This document shows positions 5,732-54,524 of a stretch of 64,000 bases of DNA, piece after piece. Below the pieces are notes generated by a model. The model made no database searches and had not been told where the DNA came from. It saw nothing but the letters and a program-made list of their open reading frames with translations. Made by a program: the position numbers and the translations under genes. The stretch lies in NCBI GenBank assembly GCA_029351405.1, contig GCA_029351405.1_4841.1; one strand, written 5' to 3'. Within the stretch, counting starts at the first letter, position 1, and each line of letters starts with the position of its first letter. Origin of the DNA: Escherichia coli (GTDB lineage Bacteria; Pseudomonadota; Gammaproteobacteria; Enterobacterales; Enterobacteriaceae).

Positions 5732-5739
5732 CCTAAATA
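5732..5739 (+). promoter_or_regulatory. late-promoter-like box (CCTAAATA) upstream of baseplate gene
   Basis: TAAATA core 34 nt upstream of ATG at 5774, same spacing as exact TATAAATA boxes elsewhere in window. Confidence 0.35.
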
Positions 5740-28159: not shown

Positions 28160-28405
28160 CTACACTAATTTCTTAGACTTTAGCGCGTCTTTGATCAGGC
28201 GCGCATCGGAGCACTCAGCTGTCAGTCGTGACAACAATGGTGCTGTAATCATCTTTTTGACTTTGGTCTCGTCTATGTCGTTCTCTTCACAGACAGCTGC
28301 CAGAGTCTCAAGGATAGTATCCTTGGTTTGGGCGGCGCGTAGTAGGACGATTTCAGAAAATAATTCTGGTGTCATCACAAGCGCTGGCTGTTTTTCGTCA
28401 GACAT
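28160..28405 (-). CDS. hypothetical protein (81 aa)
   Basis: ORF, helical, no motif. Confidence 0.4.
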   Translation of the reverse strand: MSDEKQPALVMTPELFSEIVLLRAAQTKDTILETLAAVCEENDIDETKVKKMITAPLLSRLTAECSDARLIKDALKSKKLV

Positions 28406-29531: not shown

Positions 29532-29582
29532 GTAAATAGCCCATAACGAAGTTTCATTGGTGTATGGGCTATTTACGCCGGG

Positions 29583-39545: not shown

Positions 39546-39647
39546 GGGAACCTTCCTATATCTCAGGGTGTCATCACCTCTAATTAAGGTGACAACCCCA
39601 GCATACCTGAGGATTGGATAAAGAAAAGGCCGTTTCCGGCCTTTGAG

Positions 39648-40442
39648 TTAACTGAAACTCTTGTATGCTGCTGCGAGCTTCGTGTCGTACTGGTTCTTGG
39701 CATACGCCGGACCATTATAGCGCCGCGCAAACTCAGCCCAGTTCTTGTCCTTCAGAGCCTGCCAGAGCTTGGCGTCAGCCTTGATGAACTTCACGAATGC
39801 CATCAAATGAGCACGTTCTCCTGTCAGGAAGTCGTTGAACATCTCCTTGGCGTTGGCATATCCACAGACCTGGCAGTTGAATCCCATGATCTGGAAGAGA
39901 CCGTAAGAGGCGCTCTCGTACGCACAATCCTCGTCGATGTTGATCGCTGCATGAAGTCGATCCAACTCCGCGTCGCCGCCCGTGTACCCGCCTGCGGAAG
40001 GGCTGACCAACGTCGGGTACATATGTCCCATGGCATTCGCCCGAGCCTGTCCGAACTTCGCCATCAGCTTCTTATACATGATGTGGCGCTCAAATAATGT
40101 CTTGATCTTACCTGATTTGGTGAAGCCCGTGCCGCGCGACTCAACCTGATTCACCGCCTTGACAGAGGCAAGGTCAACACCCAGATCGTTAGCAGCATCA
40201 ATCAGGTCTGACTCAGTTAGATGATCCTGATGGGCGTCTCCGGCGTTGCGAATAGCATAGGAGGTCTTTGGACCCACGATACCATCAATGACAAGTCCCG
40301 CACCCGCCTGAACCGTCTTGACGGCGTTCTCTGTTACCTTGCCAAAGATACCATCAGCGACGAGGGTGAAGCCGATTTTGTTGAGGCTATTCTGAAGTGC
40401 CTTCACTTCAGTGCCACGGTTGCCAAGTTTTAGAATGGCCAT
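39648..40442 (-). CDS. endolysin: peptidoglycan-binding domain plus N-acetylmuramidase-like catalytic domain
   Basis: N-terminal PG_binding_1-like repeat (LKLGNRGTEVKALQNSLN ... DGIFGKVTENAV ... DGIVGPKT); C-terminal domain with EYESASYGLFQIMGFN-type motif; start at Met with GGAGG ribosome-binding site. Confidence 0.7.
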   Translation of the reverse strand: MAILKLGNRGTEVKALQNSLNKIGFTLVADGIFGKVTENAVKTVQAGAGLVIDGIVGPKTSYAIRNAGDAHQDHLTESDLIDAANDLGVDLASVKAVNQVESRGTGFTKSGKIKTLFERHIMYKKLMAKFGQARANAMGHMYPTLVSPSAGGYTGGDAELDRLHAAINIDEDCAYESASYGLFQIMGFNCQVCGYANAKEMFNDFLTGERAHLMAFVKFIKADAKLWQALKDKNWAEFARRYNGPAYAKNQYDTKLAAAYKSFS

Positions 40443-40445
40443 AAG

Positions 40446-40479
40446 AAATACCTCCACAATGAATGCAGAGGTATTTAAA
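40446..40479 (-). promoter_or_regulatory. SD-sequestering hairpin overlapped by late-promoter-like box (TTTAAATA)
   Basis: 9-bp perfect stem AAATACCTC / GAGGTATTT with 13-nt loop; 3' arm contains endolysin GGAGG; TAAATA-core box overlaps 5' arm. Confidence 0.5.
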
Positions 40480-40627
40480 GTGAAAGTGAACTACTCGAGA
40501 AACTGAGGGAAAACTTTGTTCGGAATGTGGTCAGCAACCCAGAGAGCGCCTAAAGATGATTGAATGACTGTGATCTCCTCCCAAGACCTGATAGGGGGAG
40601 TTGCCTCCCCTATGTTACACGTCGGGA

Positions 40628-41116
40628 TTAGGCCAGTTTGCTCACCAGAGCTTCAACTGCGTCGGCGCTCAGTTTACCCATTTTGACGTACTGAGCTTTT
40701 GCTTCGCCGCCAACTGCTTTCACGATGTCGGTGTTGTCGTACCCCTTCTTAGGGAAGACCATCACAGAGAAGGAACCGTTGTTCAGCGGGTTCAGCTGGA
40801 TGCGACCTTTACCGACTACGATGGTGCCGTAAGTTTCGGTGTTTGCTTCGACAATGTGGATGTCGTGACCCAGGTTTTTCAGCATACCAACTTTGTCGGC
40901 AGTCTTAGCAACCACAGCTTTGTCAACCACAACCTGCTCTACCAGGGTGAAGCCGTTAGTCGATTTCACTTTACCGTTCAGCAGGTTCATGAAGGAAGTT
41001 TTGCCACCAGTGAAGCCAGCCGCCTGAGCGATGCGGAACATTTCAACTTTAGCAACTTCGGTGTTCAGTTCGAAAGAGATGGTGCCGTTGGTGATCAGAG
41101 TTTTGGTAGTAGCCAT
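40628..41116 (-). CDS. hypothetical protein (Lys/Val/Ala/Thr-rich, likely highly expressed)
   Basis: 162 aa from Met after GAGGAATTACATC; own promoter, leader hairpin and terminator; no Cys; no family recognised. Confidence 0.55.
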   Translation of the reverse strand: MATTKTLITNGTISFELNTEVAKVEMFRIAQAAGFTGGKTSFMNLLNGKVKSTNGFTLVEQVVVDKAVVAKTADKVGMLKNLGHDIHIVEANTETYGTIVVGKGRIQLNPLNNGSFSVMVFPKKGYDNTDIVKAVGGEAKAQYVKMGKLSADAVEALVSKLA

Positions 41117-41189
41117 GATGTAATTCCTCATAATGTAGTTGGTTCATTTCACTTTTCATTCGGCGGTGTGTTGCCGCCCTATGTGAACT

Positions 41190-41218
41190 ATAATAGTGCA
41201 TCATTATTGAAGAGTAAA
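41190..41218 (-). promoter_or_regulatory. sigma70 / T4-early-type promoter
   Basis: Minus-strand TTTACT -35, 17-nt spacer, TATTAT -10, AT-rich upstream tract; about 70 nt upstream of ATG at 41116. Confidence 0.45.
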
Positions 41219-41254
41219 GTCTTTTTCAATAATTTTTTAAAATATTTTTGAAGT

Positions 41255-41283
41255 ATTTTAAAAGGCCTCATTCGACGAGGCCT
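41255..41283 (-). terminator. rho-independent terminator
   Basis: AGGCCTC-loop-GAGGCCT hairpin followed by TTTTTAAAA on minus strand, about 29 nt after stop of 41312..41518. Confidence 0.55.
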
Positions 41284-43595: not shown

Positions 43596-43688
43596 GATGT
43601 TGTCCTCAGAAAAAGAAATCCCCCTGTATTTAGGGGGATCCAGTTACAGACCAAGTTCTTTCGTCGTGGCGTCGTCTAGTGCAACCTC

Positions 43689-52638: not shown

Positions 52639-53746
52639 CCAGTTTGTTCAGGCGTTGTTGGGCAGCATTATAGAAGTGCTCTGCCAGTTTACAGACGTTG
52701 TCGGGGCGCTGAATGTTGTTCCCGGCGCGGATATCCTTCTTCAGGACTTCCACCGCATCGGTCGCCACCATCTCTTCGGTGACCTCAACCTTCTCGGCAG
52801 CAACAGTAATCGTCCGGTCGATGAAGTTGTAGTCAATACACTTGCATCGCTTCATGGCATCACAGAACTTTTCATAATGCTTAGCATTGTCACGGTTCTG
52901 TACAATAACCTTAACGATTTGCCCTTCAATACCCAAGCCTGTGTTCAACCATTCCGGGTCGATCCAATTACCTTCTTCATCAGAGGACAACTTGGTGTAA
53001 TCATATTCCACATAGCGGAACAGCGTCTGGTGCTCGGCGTTCGGGATAAAGATCTCACCACCACGCATGTCGTCTACATAGAAGCCACGATTGGTCCCGT
53101 CTTTGTAGTCTTCCCAGTTCAGGTGATACGGAGTCCCAATATATTGAATGTTACCTTCCATCGAACGGGTATGGAAATGCCCCGTGTCGACCCTGGTAAA
53201 CTTGGAAAGCAGCGCAACGTCGATCTGACCGTGATCACAAGTAGAAGACTGGTACATTTTGAACCCCGCCAGCTCCAGATGCGCAAAACAGTACTCGGCG
53301 TCTGTATCCTGTATCGCTTTAATAGACGCATCATAGTTCTCCTTGTTGATCCAAGGCAGCAGCAGAGTCTTGACACCCTCGATCATCACTTCGGTCGGTT
53401 CGCTGTAATAGCAGTACACATCCGGGTCGAGTTCGTTCAGGTAGGATGGCCAGTTGATGCGGTTGGACTCTTCCAGGGTGATGTCATGGTTGCCCACGAT
53501 GCCATTCCACTTGATACCAGCCGCTTTCAACGCAGGGGTGAGTTCATCCTTCAGCCAGTCTTTGTCGCGCCCGTACATGAATTTGCGGACATCAAACGTA
53601 TCACCGAACTGCCAGACCTCTTTGATATCAGAGTCGGCAAGTTCAGGAATGAAATAATTGATGAGATAGTTCTTGATGAAGTCGCGAACGTATCGAGAAC
53701 CATTACGGCTCCCGATATGCAGATCGCCAATTTTAGCAATCGCCAT
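52631..53746 (-). CDS. recombination endonuclease subunit (gp47 / SbcD / Mre11-like nuclease)
   Basis: Metallophosphoesterase motifs GDLHIG, GDTFD, GNHD and HFH in Mre11 order; overlaps gp46-like start. Confidence 0.8.
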   Translation of the reverse strand: MAIAKIGDLHIGSRNGSRYVRDFIKNYLINYFIPELADSDIKEVWQFGDTFDVRKFMYGRDKDWLKDELTPALKAAGIKWNGIVGNHDITLEESNRINWPSYLNELDPDVYCYYSEPTEVMIEGVKTLLLPWINKENYDASIKAIQDTDAEYCFAHLELAGFKMYQSSTCDHGQIDVALLSKFTRVDTGHFHTRSMEGNIQYIGTPYHLNWEDYKDGTNRGFYVDDMRGGEIFIPNAEHQTLFRYVEYDYTKLSSDEEGNWIDPEWLNTGLGIEGQIVKVIVQNRDNAKHYEKFCDAMKRCKCIDYNFIDRTITVAAEKVEVTEEMVATDAVEVLKKDIRAGNNIQRPDNVCKLAEHFYNAAQQRLNKLDA

Positions 53747-54524
53747 TGTTCTTTTTCTCCCGTTCTTCTAATCTTTGTTTGAGGGCTTCCCAATCTGGTT
53801 CCATCGCACAGATATCATCTTCCAGATTGAATTGGGTTTTGCCAAAGTCCTGATCTGAATTGTCTTCGGCCTGCGCTGTTACCGTATTCTTAGCCTGCGC
53901 CATGTATTGAAGTATGCCTTTCGCAATCTTTTTATTCGATTCTGCGAGACGAGCCGCCTCCACCTTCTCTCGTTCCTTTTGCCTTTGAGCGTCCTTTTTG
54001 TTCTCAAAGTTGCCGATACGTTCACGGAAGTCCATGCCAATTCCTGTAGCATCAACAAAGACCTCTTGTTGGAAGTCGGGATCGTCTGCCAGGCCTGCGA
54101 ACCCACCCGCCTCTTCAAATGAGCGCAATTTAATGTACGTGTGCTCTTCTTCGATGTTCAGTTTACGAGCAAATGATCGATCAGCACACATGGTCACCCA
54201 AGAGAAGAAGTTGATCTTCCCTTTCTTTCCAATGTGTTCGACGTCAAATGTGTGGAGGTAGCGCAAGATGTTGACTATTGCTTCAGAGACCATGTCTTCA
54301 CGGAAGGGATAGTCGCGATAGTTGTAGCGGGTGCTCATCTTGGTGATGATGCGCTGGACCTGTAGAGCAACATAGTTGGGGATCTTTGGAAGCCTGGTGC
54401 CTTCAGCTAGAGCCTTCTTACGAGCAGGGATCCAATCACGCAGGATGCTGATGACACGCTCGTTATCTTCGTCTGTGAAATATTTGACGACATTCTCCCC
54501 TCTGTCCACGAAGTTCATTCCCAT
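53733..54524 (-). CDS. late-transcription sigma factor, gp55-like
   Basis: Segments MVSEAIVNILRYLHTFD and KINFFSWVTMCADRSFARK align by pattern with recalled T4 gp55 regions; sits next to gp47/gp46 as in T4. Confidence 0.7.
   Translation of the reverse strand: MGMNFVDRGENVVKYFTDEDNERVISILRDWIPARKKALAEGTRLPKIPNYVALQVQRIITKMSTRYNYRDYPFREDMVSEAIVNILRYLHTFDVEHIGKKGKINFFSWVTMCADRSFARKLNIEEEHTYIKLRSFEEAGGFAGLADDPDFQQEVFVDATGIGMDFRERIGNFENKKDAQRQKEREKVEAARLAESNKKIAKGILQYMAQAKNTVTAQAEDNSDQDFGKTQFNLEDDICAMEPDWEALKQRLEEREKKNNGDC

What the first reader, a model, noticed from the sequence alone, without database searches (positions are those of the whole stretch)
40439..40484. Endolysin ribosome-binding site locked in a hairpin whose 5' arm overlaps a late-promoter-like box
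Directly upstream of the endolysin start, the mRNA-sense strand reads TTTAAATACCTC-loop-GAGGTATTT-CTT-ATG. A perfect 9-bp stem (AAATACCTC / GAGGTATTT) places the GGAGG Shine-Dalgarno in the 3' arm. The 5' arm is overlapped by TTTAAATA, which shares the TAAATA core of the exact TATAAATA late boxes in this window. A transcript initiated a few nucleotides past that box would lack the 5' arm and leave the Shine-Dalgarno free, while read-through transcripts would be translationally silent. This mirrors the known control of T4 lysozyme gene e.
Basis: partly seen in the sequence, partly recalled or inferred. Interest (0 to 1): 0.65.

Follow-up and report, generated by a model that had tools for sequence, protein, structure and literature searches.

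The report
Late-promoter hairpin masking the endolysin ribosome site
Upstream of this phage's cell-wall-degrading enzyme gene, a conserved RNA hairpin pairs the late promoter with the ribosome-binding site, so probably only late-started transcripts are translated, as in phage T4.

Summary
On the minus strand the endolysin leader reads TT-TAAATA-CCTCTGCA-TTCAT-TGTGGAGGTATTT-CTT-ATG. The stem has 13 bp, not 9 (−16.1 kcal/mol, z −6.3). It buries the GGAGGU Shine-Dalgarno.

The window is an Ackermannviridae phage and encodes gp55-like and gp33-like late-transcription proteins. TAAATA is the family's positional late box. The T4 spacing rule puts +1 at about 40466, which removes 10 of the 13 nucleotides of the 5' arm. 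The Shine-Dalgarno is fully paired in read-through RNA (P unpaired 0.00) and partly free in the late transcript (0.37).

All 16 relatives from four genera keep the hairpin. Loops vary freely, and four base pairs change on both sides in Miltonvirus. The T4 gene e leader has nearly the same arms, although the two enzymes are unrelated. The same box-to-RBS design recurs at other late genes, including the RuvC resolvase gene in this window.

One caveat: some GenBank records call this hairpin a terminator. It is borderline terminator-like, so it may also attenuate transcription.

There is no experimental mapping and nothing was found in print. Verdict: a new member of a known kind, of moderate interest.

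The parts
40472..40479 (-). Late-promoter-like box TTTAAATA. The core TAAATA is at 40477-40472, taken as -11 to -6.
   Evidence: Read directly from the sequence. TAAATA is positionally specific: 9 of 17 copies in the window and 29 of 54 in LIMEstone1 lie 26-55 nt before an SD+ATG gene start. The homologous box is annotated as a putative late promoter in NC_019925. The T at 40477 lies outside the stem yet is invariant in 16 relatives.
40464..40476 (-). 5' arm of the hairpin, AAAUACCUCUGCA. It contains an anti-SD-like ACCUC.
   Evidence: Fold results. Pair table.
40459..40463 (-). Loop UUCAU.
   Evidence: The loop varies freely among relatives (UUCAU, UACAU, AACAU, AUCAC, UAAAU; 8-9 nt in Miltonvirus) while the stems stay paired.
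40446..40458 (-). 3' arm UGUGGAGGUAUUU. It holds the Shine-Dalgarno GGAGGU (40455-40450).
   Evidence: P(unpaired) of the SD is 0.00 in read-through RNAs and 0.37 in RNAs that start at 40468-40462.
40466..40466 (-). Predicted late transcription start (G), the 6th nt after the box. This gives a 24-nt leader.
   Evidence: Inference from the T4 late-promoter geometry, box at -13 to -6 (PMC2988020). Not mapped.
39648..40442 (-). Endolysin gene (264 aa, ATG 40442-40440). N-terminal peptidoglycan-binding domain plus N-acetylmuramidase.
   Evidence: Pfam PF11860 at 2.7e-59 and PF01471 at 1.3e-14. PHROG endolysin families. The start matches the annotated relatives.
39625..39644 (-). Intrinsic-terminator-like hairpin plus U tract that closes the endolysin transcription unit.
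   Evidence: score +24.
40628..41131 (-). Co-oriented upstream ORF (167 aa, unknown function, phrog_3764). It is the likely source of read-through transcripts.
   Evidence: Sigma-70-like sites lie at 41229-41190, upstream of it. The homologous site in LIMEstone1 is annotated as a putative middle promoter. The scan found no terminator-like site between this ORF and the hairpin.
53733..54524 (-). gp55-like late sigma factor, the trans-acting factor presumed to read the box.
   Evidence: phrog_234 at 3.2e-52.
28160..28405 (-). gp33-like late-transcription coactivator.
   Evidence: PF16805 at 6.9e-18 and phrog_254.
29532..29576 (-). Second instance of the same design, in the leader of the RuvC-like resolvase. 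A 14-bp hairpin joins the late box (29575-29570) to the bases that abut AUG 29531.
   Evidence: -20.9 kcal/mol, duplex p = 0.000. It carries a compensatory G:C base-pair insertion relative to LIMEstone1.

Best explanation
This is a T4 gene-e-type switch in which the transcription start point decides whether the mRNA is translated.

- **Read-through RNA.** Transcripts that enter from the co-oriented upstream gene (early or middle, or any upstream promoter) contain both arms. They fold into the 13-bp hairpin and hide the GGAGGU Shine-Dalgarno, so the endolysin is not translated. In most relatives the hairpin plus its U-rich tail probably also terminates part of these transcripts.
- **Late RNA.** Late in infection, host RNA polymerase carrying the phage gp55-like sigma (with gp33 and the clamp) should recognise the TAAATA box that forms the base of the 5' arm. 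It would then start about 6 nt downstream (about 40466). That RNA lacks 10 of the 13 nucleotides of the 5' arm, cannot form the hairpin, has a 24-nt leader with a free SD, and is translated.

What is shown: the sequence anatomy, the thermodynamic stability, the conservation and covariation, the presence of the late machinery, and the positional specificity of TAAATA. What is inferred: promoter activity, the start point, the existence of read-through RNA, and the translational effect.
For: 1. **Anatomy and stability.** The stem is 13 bp at -16.1 kcal/mol, z = -6.3. The SD is fully paired in every read-through construct and opens when the RNA starts at 40468-40462.
2. **Conservation.** All 16 relatives keep the hairpin. 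They come from Limestonevirus and other Aglimvirinae, Kuttervirus, Taipeivirus and Miltonvirus. The sequence further upstream is unrelated between lineages.
3. **Covariation.** Loop positions vary freely. Stem changes within the main group are all pair-preserving transitions. Miltonvirus has changes on both sides at four pairs, positions +3, +4, +6 and +7 after the box.
4. **Strand specificity.** G.U pairs make the mRNA-sense strand fold better than its complement: -16.1 against -10.5, and -18.0 against -13.6 in LIMEstone1. This points to an RNA of that sense rather than a DNA palindrome.
5. **The box is conserved beyond its pairing role.** The T at 40477 is unpaired yet invariant. In Miltonvirus the box stays TAAATA even though its U partner is lost.
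6. **TAAATA is a positional motif.** 53-54% of copies lie 26-55 nt before gene starts, against 3-29% for same-composition hexamers. Exact TATAAATA boxes are enriched.
7. **Late machinery.** gp55-like and gp33-like genes are in the window.
8. **T4 precedent.** The T4 gene e leader folds the same way with nearly the same arms. Its mechanism is established (PMC3014915).
9. **Recurrence.** In LIMEstone1, 6 of 27 late leaders pair the box region with the RBS at p <= 0.01: a tail protein, a tail spike, ORF173, ORF191, the HNH endonuclease I-LimII and the endolysin. RuvC is a seventh: it scores p = 0.043 at the annotated LIMEstone1 start and was not recomputed at the corrected one, but its homologue in the window gives p = 0.000. 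The hairpins disappear when folding starts at the predicted +1. The window has the endolysin and RuvC cases. RuvC, the HNH endonuclease and the endolysin are functional analogues of T4 genes 49, I-TevI and e, which use this control.
Against: - No 5'-end mapping, transcriptome or expression data for any Ackermannviridae phage turned up. Promoter activity of the box is prediction only.
- The segment after the box is C-rich, whereas T4 late promoters tend to be AT-rich there (PMC2988020).
- The AUG itself is outside the stem.
- SD accessibility in the late RNA is only 0.37, not 1.
- Some hairpin-bearing paralogues follow other late genes, where a temporal lock makes less obvious sense.
- All seven strongest hairpins in LIMEstone1 sit behind co-oriented genes, but this association is only a trend (7 of 19 against 0 of 8, one-sided Fisher about 0.06, my count).
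- Two GenBank records annotate the same hairpin as a terminator.
Confidence: 0.62

Rival explanations
1. The hairpin is mainly an intrinsic (rho-independent) terminator or insulator. It stops early or middle transcription from the upstream ORF just before the endolysin AUG. The late promoter embedded in its 5' arm produces RNA that cannot form the terminator. On this view, sequestration of the SD is a by-product of packing a promoter, a terminator and an RBS into 40 nt. This overlaps with the best explanation, and both effects could operate.
For: - The Marshall and Magnus GenBank records annotate exactly this hairpin as a terminator overlapping the RBS.
- A U-rich tail always follows: UAUUUUCUU in most relatives and UUUUUCAUU in Miltonvirus.
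- A d'Aubenton-Carafa-type score is positive in LIMEstone1 (+11) and Magnus (+12) and about 0 in KNP4.
- The window has a clear example of a late box inside a good terminator, at 43640-43617 with score +18. Promoter-in-terminator insulation therefore exists in this genome.
Against: - In this window the score is below threshold (-6), because one T of the tail is missing. True terminators here score +18 and +24.
- The tool's own terminator scan did not call it.
- The paralogous box-RBS hairpins (RuvC, ORF160, ORF159) and T4 gene e score -24 to -36 and have no U tract. RBS pairing, not termination, is what these hairpins share.
- The scoring formula was recalled from memory and used modern energies, so only the ranking is meaningful.
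Confidence: 0.25
2. The hairpin is a constitutive translational attenuator. All endolysin transcripts start upstream of the hairpin, for example from the conserved TTCACTTTCACTT region or from the upstream operon. The stem then simply keeps endolysin translation low, or makes it depend on a helicase, an RNase cut or another factor. The TAAATA would be conserved only as the complement of UAUUU.
For: - An invariant block (40490-40478) upstream of the box is unexplained.
- Promoter activity of the box is untested.
Against: - No other TAAATA lies within 150 nt upstream, and the sigma-70 scan found no promoter-like site there.
- The unpaired T of the box is invariant, and the box survives loss of pairing in Miltonvirus.
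- TAAATA is strongly position-specific before late genes.
- In Miltonvirus the bases upstream of the box are the coding end of the previous ORF.
Confidence: 0.08
3. The hairpin is a chance or by-product palindrome with no function. Possibilities are a remnant of back-to-back late promoters, as at 5734/5761 and 25792/25816, or a DNA-level protein-binding palindrome.
For: - Perfect 9-bp hairpins occur by chance at about 3.7 seeds per 64 kb.
- Divergent late-box pairs do create palindromes elsewhere in the window.
Against: - The complement of the 3' arm reads GAAATA or AAAATA, not TAAATA, and no plus-strand gene lies downstream.
- The G.U pairs become A.C mismatches on the other strand and in DNA.
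- The hairpin is conserved across four genera, with compensatory changes and free loops.
Confidence: 0.05

Closest known systems
Bacteriophage T4 lysozyme gene e leader (McPheeters et al. 1986; reviewed in PMC3014915)
   Same: - The late -10 box forms the 5' arm and the GGAGGU SD lies in the 3' arm.
- The arms are nearly identical in sequence: T4 TAAATACCTTC / GGAGGTATT against window TAAATACCTCT / GGAGGTATT. LIMEstone1 has exactly TAAATACCTTC.
- The controlled gene is the endolysin.
- The phage uses gp55/gp33-type late transcription.
- A co-oriented upstream gene can read through.
   Different: - The enzymes are unrelated (PF11860 muramidase plus PG_binding_1 here, against T4 lysozyme). The similarity of the leaders is therefore most simply a forced convergence: TAAATA paired next to GGAGG can hardly be written any other way.
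- The phage belongs to a different family, Ackermannviridae rather than Straboviridae.
- There is one late box, not two.
- The loop is 5 nt, against 8 nt in T4, where the loop holds the second promoter.
- The stem is longer and more stable (13 bp, -16 kcal/mol, against about -10 to -15).
- The AUG is outside the stem.
- The tail is more terminator-like.
- The T4 case is proven experimentally. This one is not.
T4 genes 49 (endonuclease VII), soc and I-TevI, and Aeh1 mobE: RBS-sequestering hairpins relieved by late-promoter starts (PMC3014915)
   Same: - The same logic is applied to several genes in one genome.
- Here it recurs at the RuvC-like resolvase gene (window 29576-29532) and, in LIMEstone1, at the HNH endonuclease I-LimII inside the DNA polymerase gene, and at several structural genes.
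   Different: - The genes are non-orthologous: a RuvC-family resolvase against T4 endonuclease VII, and different homing endonucleases.
- In this family many of the 5' arms share a TAAATACCCC consensus paired to GGGGUAUUU.
Intrinsic terminators with an embedded or adjacent promoter (insulator arrangement)
   Same: - It is a stem-loop with a U-rich tail downstream of a gene.
- Annotation pipelines call it a terminator.
- A clear promoter-in-terminator-loop example lies nearby, at 43640-43617.
   Different: - The U tract is interrupted (UAUUUCUU) and the score in this window is below threshold.
- The 3' arm is the RBS of the next gene.

Membership tests
T4 gene-e-type late-promoter/RBS-hairpin switch | The phage has T4-type late transcription (gp55 late sigma and gp33 coactivator). 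| tested here: met
   A gp55-like ORF lies at 53733-54524 (phrog_234, 3.2e-52). A gp33-like ORF lies at 28160-28405 (PF16805, 6.9e-18).
T4 gene-e-type late-promoter/RBS-hairpin switch | A late-promoter -10 box lies in the 5' arm (or loop) of the hairpin, so that late transcripts lack the 5' arm. | tested here: met
   TAAATA at 40477-40472 forms the base of the 5' arm. The motif is position-specific for gene starts and is annotated as a putative late promoter in NC_019925. The predicted +1 at 40466 leaves 3 of 13 arm nucleotides. Promoter activity itself was not tested.
T4 gene-e-type late-promoter/RBS-hairpin switch | [quoted passage not shown] | tested here: met
   GGAGGU at 40455-40450 is fully paired, with P(unpaired) 0.00 in read-through RNA. 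The AUG is not in the stem.
T4 gene-e-type late-promoter/RBS-hairpin switch | The structure is under selection (conserved, with pair-preserving or compensatory changes). | tested here: met
   All 16 relatives keep it. Four pairs carry changes on both sides in Miltonvirus, and the loops vary.
T4 gene-e-type late-promoter/RBS-hairpin switch | Early or middle transcripts from upstream read into the gene. | tested here: inconclusive
   The upstream ORF is co-oriented, has sigma-70-like sites before it, and no terminator-like site lies in between. No RNA data exist, and the hairpin itself may terminate some transcripts.
T4 gene-e-type late-promoter/RBS-hairpin switch | There are two classes of 5' ends, and only the short, late RNA is translated. 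| not testable with these tools
   This needs 5'-end mapping and translation assays. No transcriptome of any Ackermannviridae phage was found.
T4 gene-e-type late-promoter/RBS-hairpin switch | The controlled gene is homologous to T4 e (needed only for orthology of the whole locus). | tested here: not met
   The protein is PF11860 plus PF01471, with no match to any other Pfam family such as a T4-type lysozyme domain. The element works like the T4 e leader but is not an orthologous locus.
Intrinsic (rho-independent) terminator | A G+C-rich stem-loop is followed immediately by a run of U. | tested here: inconclusive
   The stem is present. The tail is UAUUUCUUAUG. The consensus scan did not call it. 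The score is -6 here and +11 or +12 in LIMEstone1 and Magnus, against +18 and +24 for clear terminators. Two GenBank records annotate it as a terminator.
Intrinsic (rho-independent) terminator | RNA 3' ends map to the U tract. | not testable with these tools
   This needs Term-seq or 3'-RACE.
Any curated Rfam RNA family | A match at the family's gathering score. | tested here: not met
   The only match is a chance-level one (PsrR1, 20 bits against a gathering score of 42, E = 0.27).

The most novel reading that the evidence does not exclude
The endolysin hairpin may be one instance of a family-wide regulatory code in Ackermannviridae. Under this code, the bases just downstream of the late -10 box (TAAATA-CCYC/CCCC) act as a built-in anti-Shine-Dalgarno. 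About a quarter of late genes would then be translated only from their own late promoter and be shielded from read-through.

The set includes functional analogues of three of the four classical T4 cases (e, 49 and I-TevI; no soc counterpart was looked for), on non-homologous genes. At the endolysin, the same 40 nt would also act as a partial terminator. That would make it a three-in-one promoter, terminator and RBS lock that travels with gp55-type transcription rather than with any particular gene.
Probability: 0.4. Interest if true: 0.55.

Novelty: new member of a known kind. Interest (0 to 1): 0.42.

Why it matters
- **Evolution of the control logic.** If confirmed, the classical T4 lysozyme control (translation allowed only from late-promoter transcripts) is not a peculiarity of T-even phages. 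It would be a recurrent solution wherever gp55-type late promoters are used, re-created on an unrelated endolysin and on several other genes in a different phage family.
- **Annotation.** It reconciles conflicting GenBank annotations of the same 40 nt ("late promoter" in one record, "terminator" plus RBS in others). It also gives a simple rule for annotating late promoters and true start codons in Ackermannviridae; the LIMEstone1 RuvC start is one example.
- **Applied use.** Ackermannviridae are widely used as biocontrol and therapy phages. The rule tells engineers that moving or expressing these endolysin and late genes together with their native leaders will give silent constructs.

Tried and rejected
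- **Long-range helix.** In the window, the invariant upstream TTCACTTTCACTT is predicted to pair with codons 9-13. I rejected this as an explanation of its conservation, because the downstream partner is not conserved in Kuttervirus or Taipeivirus.
- **Divergent-promoter palindrome.** Rejected. The complement of the 3' arm is not a TAAATA box and there is no plus-strand gene.
- **Sigma-70 promoter inside the conserved block.** The scan called none there, and manual inspection of the sequence found no usable -35/-10 pair.
- **Rfam.** No family matched.
- **Distant endolysin homologue outside the family** (L010, 47% identity). Its aligned upstream region shows no TAAATA box and no similarity to the leader; it was not folded. 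The leader appears to go with the phage family, not with the enzyme family.
- **Orientation test.** I asked whether the strong hairpins sit only behind co-oriented genes. The result is 7 of 19 against 0 of 8, a trend only (p about 0.06), so I did not use it as strong evidence.
- **Literature searches.** Searches for Ackermannviridae transcriptomes, TSS maps or any description of this hairpin found nothing. McPheeters 1986 (PMC311593) is not held in the library, so I cite the T4 mechanism through the review PMC3014915.
- **Pair counting.** MAFFT put the Miltonvirus 3' arm out of register, so I did not use the count of structure pairs. Pairs were tabulated by anchoring on the promoter box instead.
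Full report
**What is in the sequence.**

The endolysin gene is on the minus strand (ATG 40442-40440, stop at 39648). Its product has an N-terminal peptidoglycan-binding domain and an N-acetylmuramidase domain (PF01471 and PF11860; PHROG endolysin families). In mRNA sense, the 45 nt before it read cacTT-TAAATA-CCTCTGCA-TTCAT-TGTGGAGGTATTT-CTT-ATG.

The helix continues through U.G, G.U, C-G and A-U pairs to 13 bp, closed by a 5-nt loop. The hairpin alone folds at -16.1 kcal/mol, z = -6.3 against dinucleotide shuffles. The GGAGGU Shine-Dalgarno (40455-40450, 8 nt before the AUG) lies in the middle of the 3' arm. The TAAATA box (40477-40472) forms the base of the 5' arm.

A 9-bp perfect hairpin is not rare in itself. 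The window has 14 seeds at about 8 loci, against 3.7 seeds per shuffled window. The case for function therefore rests on position and conservation, not on the repeat alone.

**Which genome this is.**

The region is 98.7% identical to Escherichia phage AV101. It also matches more than 220 Ackermannviridae genomes from Aglimvirinae, Kuttervirus, Taipeivirus and Miltonvirus. These phages have T4-type late transcription. The window itself encodes a gp55-like late sigma (53733-54524) and a gp33-like coactivator (28160-28405). The family papers report gp55, gp33 and gp45 homologues (PMC3184105, PMC3121705).

**Is the box a late promoter?**

No late promoter of this family has been mapped experimentally. 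CBA120's authors state that the recognised sequence was not yet identified. The AG3 and LIMEstone1 papers predicted late promoters by similarity to T4. The LIMEstone1 GenBank record marks the TAAATA homologous to 40477-40472 as the -10 of a "putative late promoter".

I tested the motif independently:
- 29 of 54 TAAATA copies in LIMEstone1 lie 26-55 nt upstream of an SD+ATG gene start.
- 9 of 17 copies in the window do the same.
- Hexamers of the same composition score 4-18% in LIMEstone1 and 0-29% in the window.

The three exact TATAAATA boxes in the window (0.5 expected) precede structural-gene homologues. The two bases before TAAATA vary among the predicted promoters, as they do at T4 positions -13 and -12 (PMC2988020). 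TTTAAATA is therefore as good a match as most.

Two details argue that the endolysin box is conserved for its own sake and not only as the complement of UAUUU:
- Its first T is unpaired yet invariant in all 16 relatives.
- In Miltonvirus the box is unchanged although the partner of its U has mutated away.

**Geometry of the switch.**

With the T4 numbering (box at -13 to -6), +1 falls at G 40466. Such an RNA keeps only GCA of the 13-nt 5' arm and has a 24-nt leader. Partition-function folding gives the following:

| Transcript start | Mean P(unpaired) of the SD |
|---|---|
| 40640, 40560, 40500 or 40480 (read-through) | 0.00 |
| 40468 to 40462 (late start) | 0.37 |

The AUG is mostly open in both cases.

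**Source of read-through.**

A co-oriented 167-aa ORF (41131-40628) lies upstream, preceded by sigma-70-like sites. The homologous site in LIMEstone1 is annotated as a putative middle promoter. The scan found no terminator-like site between this ORF and the hairpin. A good terminator closes the unit after the endolysin, at 39644-39625.

**Comparative evidence.**

All 16 leaders examined fold into the hairpin, at -13 to -18 kcal/mol. The sequence further upstream is unrelated between lineages, and many relatives carry two extra small ORFs there.

Within the main group:
- Three of the five loop positions vary.
- The stem shows only transitions that keep pairing (C-G to U.G, and G.U to G-C).

Miltonvirus phages (KNP4, 3M, Kevin) have a different stem, ACCCUCUG/CAGAGGGU. 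Anchored on the box, it differs from the window's stem by changes on both sides at positions +3, +4, +6 and +7, with no broken pair there.

Because of the G.U pairs, the mRNA-sense strand folds 4-6 kcal/mol better than its complement. This argues for a sense RNA structure rather than a DNA palindrome.

**The T4 precedent, checked directly.**

The T4 gene e leader (NC_000866) reads TATAAATACCTTCTATAAATACTTAGGAGGTATTATG. It folds with TAAATACCUUC pairing to GGAGGUAUU. LIMEstone1's 5' arm is identical to T4's over 11 nt. The window differs by the CT/TC swap.

The review PMC3014915 states the mechanism. Longer early transcripts form the inhibitory structure, which it credits with reducing lysozyme synthesis about 100-fold. 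Transcripts from the late promoters lack the 5' part of the structure and are well translated. T4 genes soc, 49 and I-TevI use the same control.

The two endolysins are unrelated, so the similarity of the leaders is most simply a forced convergence. A hairpin that pairs TAAATA with the bases next to GGAGG has to look like this.

**The design recurs in the same genomes.**

I took 27 LIMEstone1 late leaders and scored pairing between the box region and the 20 nt before the AUG. Six reach p <= 0.01 against shuffles:
- the tail protein ORF160 (-23 kcal/mol);
- ORF173;
- the endolysin;
- the tail spike ORF159;
- the small membrane protein ORF191;
- the HNH endonuclease I-LimII, which sits inside the DNA polymerase gene.

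RuvC is a seventh case. It scores p = 0.043 at the annotated LIMEstone1 start and was not recomputed at the corrected start. In every case the structure vanishes when folding starts at the predicted +1. Many of these leaders share the form TAAATACCCC...GGGGUAUUU.

In the window, the RuvC-like resolvase leader (29576-29532) has a 14-bp stem at -20.9 kcal/mol that abuts its AUG, and scores p = 0.000. Relative to LIMEstone1, it carries an inserted G in the 5' arm matched by an inserted C in the 3' arm. That same insertion puts LIMEstone1's annotated RuvC start out of frame in the window.

Endolysin, resolvase and intron-type endonuclease are the functional counterparts of T4 e, 49 and I-TevI.

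All seven strongest hairpins lie directly behind co-oriented genes (7 of 19 such contexts, against 0 of 8 divergent ones). This is only a trend, p about 0.06.

**The main rival.**

The Marshall and Magnus records annotate this same hairpin as a terminator overlapping the RBS. A U-rich tail always follows it.

I scored terminator-likeness with a d'Aubenton-Carafa-type formula. The formula was recalled from memory and used modern energies, so only the ranking should be trusted.

| Hairpin | Score |
|---|---|
| Window endolysin leader (one T of the tail missing) | -6 |
| LIMEstone1 endolysin leader | +11 |
| Magnus endolysin leader | +12 |
| KNP4 endolysin leader | about 0 |
| Two clear terminators in the window | +18 and +24 |
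| T4 gene e leader | -36 |
| RuvC, ORF160 and ORF159 hairpins | -24 to -35 |

The feature shared by all members of this hairpin class is therefore RBS pairing. The endolysin version may in addition attenuate transcription. Both effects point the same way: no endolysin from upstream transcripts. I treat termination as a likely accessory, not as a replacement.

A constitutive attenuator with an upstream start, or a functionless palindrome, fits the data poorly. The evidence is the invariance of the box beyond its pairing role, the strand asymmetry, the covariation, and the absence of any other box upstream.

**What is not shown.**

Nothing here demonstrates promoter activity, the start site, read-through RNA or a translational effect. 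I found no transcriptome or TSS map for any Ackermannviridae phage, and no paper that describes this leader. The invariant TTCACTTTCACTT just upstream of the box (40490-40478) remains unexplained.

**Verdict.**

This is a new member of a well-known kind of control, the T4 gene e type, in another phage family and on an unrelated endolysin. It is probably part of a wider box-to-RBS design in that family. Interest is moderate.

Noticed in passing
window 29532-29576 (- strand): The RuvC-like Holliday-junction resolvase gene (ATG 29531) has the same architecture. A 14-bp hairpin, GUAAAUAGCCCAUA/UAUGGGCUAUUUAC at -20.9 kcal/mol, joins a late TAAATA box to the bases that abut the AUG. Relative to LIMEstone1 it has a compensatory G:C base-pair insertion. 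It is the functional analogue of T4 gene 49, which is controlled this way.
   Followed up: partly
L011 (LIMEstone1 NC_019925) 41988 versus window 29531: LIMEstone1's annotated RuvC start (ATG inside GTTATGGGT) is probably 12 nt too far upstream. In the window, the extra C puts that ATG out of frame, whereas the downstream ATG (TTTACATGAAA) is shared by both.
   Followed up: partly
window 43617-43640 (- strand): A late TAAATA box sits in the loop of a terminator-like hairpin (GAUCCCCCU-AAAUAC-AGGGGGAUU followed by UCUUUUUC, score +18). It lies upstream of a structural-protein homologue. This is a promoter-inside-terminator arrangement.
   Followed up: partly
window 5734/5761 and 25792/25816: Back-to-back late boxes on opposite strands form palindromic intergenic regions between divergent late genes (gp48-like with its neighbour, and tail-tube-like with gp2-like). 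Here the inverted repeat is a by-product of two promoters.
   Followed up: partly
window 40478-40490 (- strand): TTCACTTTCACTT, directly upstream of the endolysin late box, is invariant in Aglimvirinae, Kuttervirus and Taipeivirus, although T4-type late promoters need no upstream element. A predicted pairing with codons 9-13 is not conserved. Several other late boxes are preceded by CAC. This remains unexplained.
   Followed up: partly
window 40505-40627: This phage, like AV101, A221 and fGh-Ecl02, lacks the two small ORFs (LIMEstone1 ORF072 and ORF071) that separate the 167-aa ORF from the endolysin in most relatives. The 120-nt spacer contains a GC-rich hairpin (about 40612-40590) with no U tract.
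   Followed up: no
window 41203-41233 and 41235-41263: Two adjacent AT-rich perfect 9-10-bp palindromes overlap the sigma-70-like promoter sites upstream of the 167-aa ORF. They could be an operator or a bidirectional terminator.
   Followed up: no
L013 (LIMEstone1) 139325-139362 and 147905-147941: The HNH endonuclease I-LimII, which sits inside the DNA polymerase gene, also carries a late-box/RBS hairpin. So does a 55-aa membrane protein (ORF191, a possible lysis protein). The first parallels T4 I-TevI.
   Followed up: partly
GenBank records KF669653 (Marshall), NC_049462 (Magnus) and NC_019925 (LIMEstone1): The same 40-nt element is annotated inconsistently. Two records call it "terminator" plus RBS, and a third calls it a "putative late promoter" -10. 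LIMEstone1 also places a "terminator" across the endolysin start codon.
   Followed up: yes
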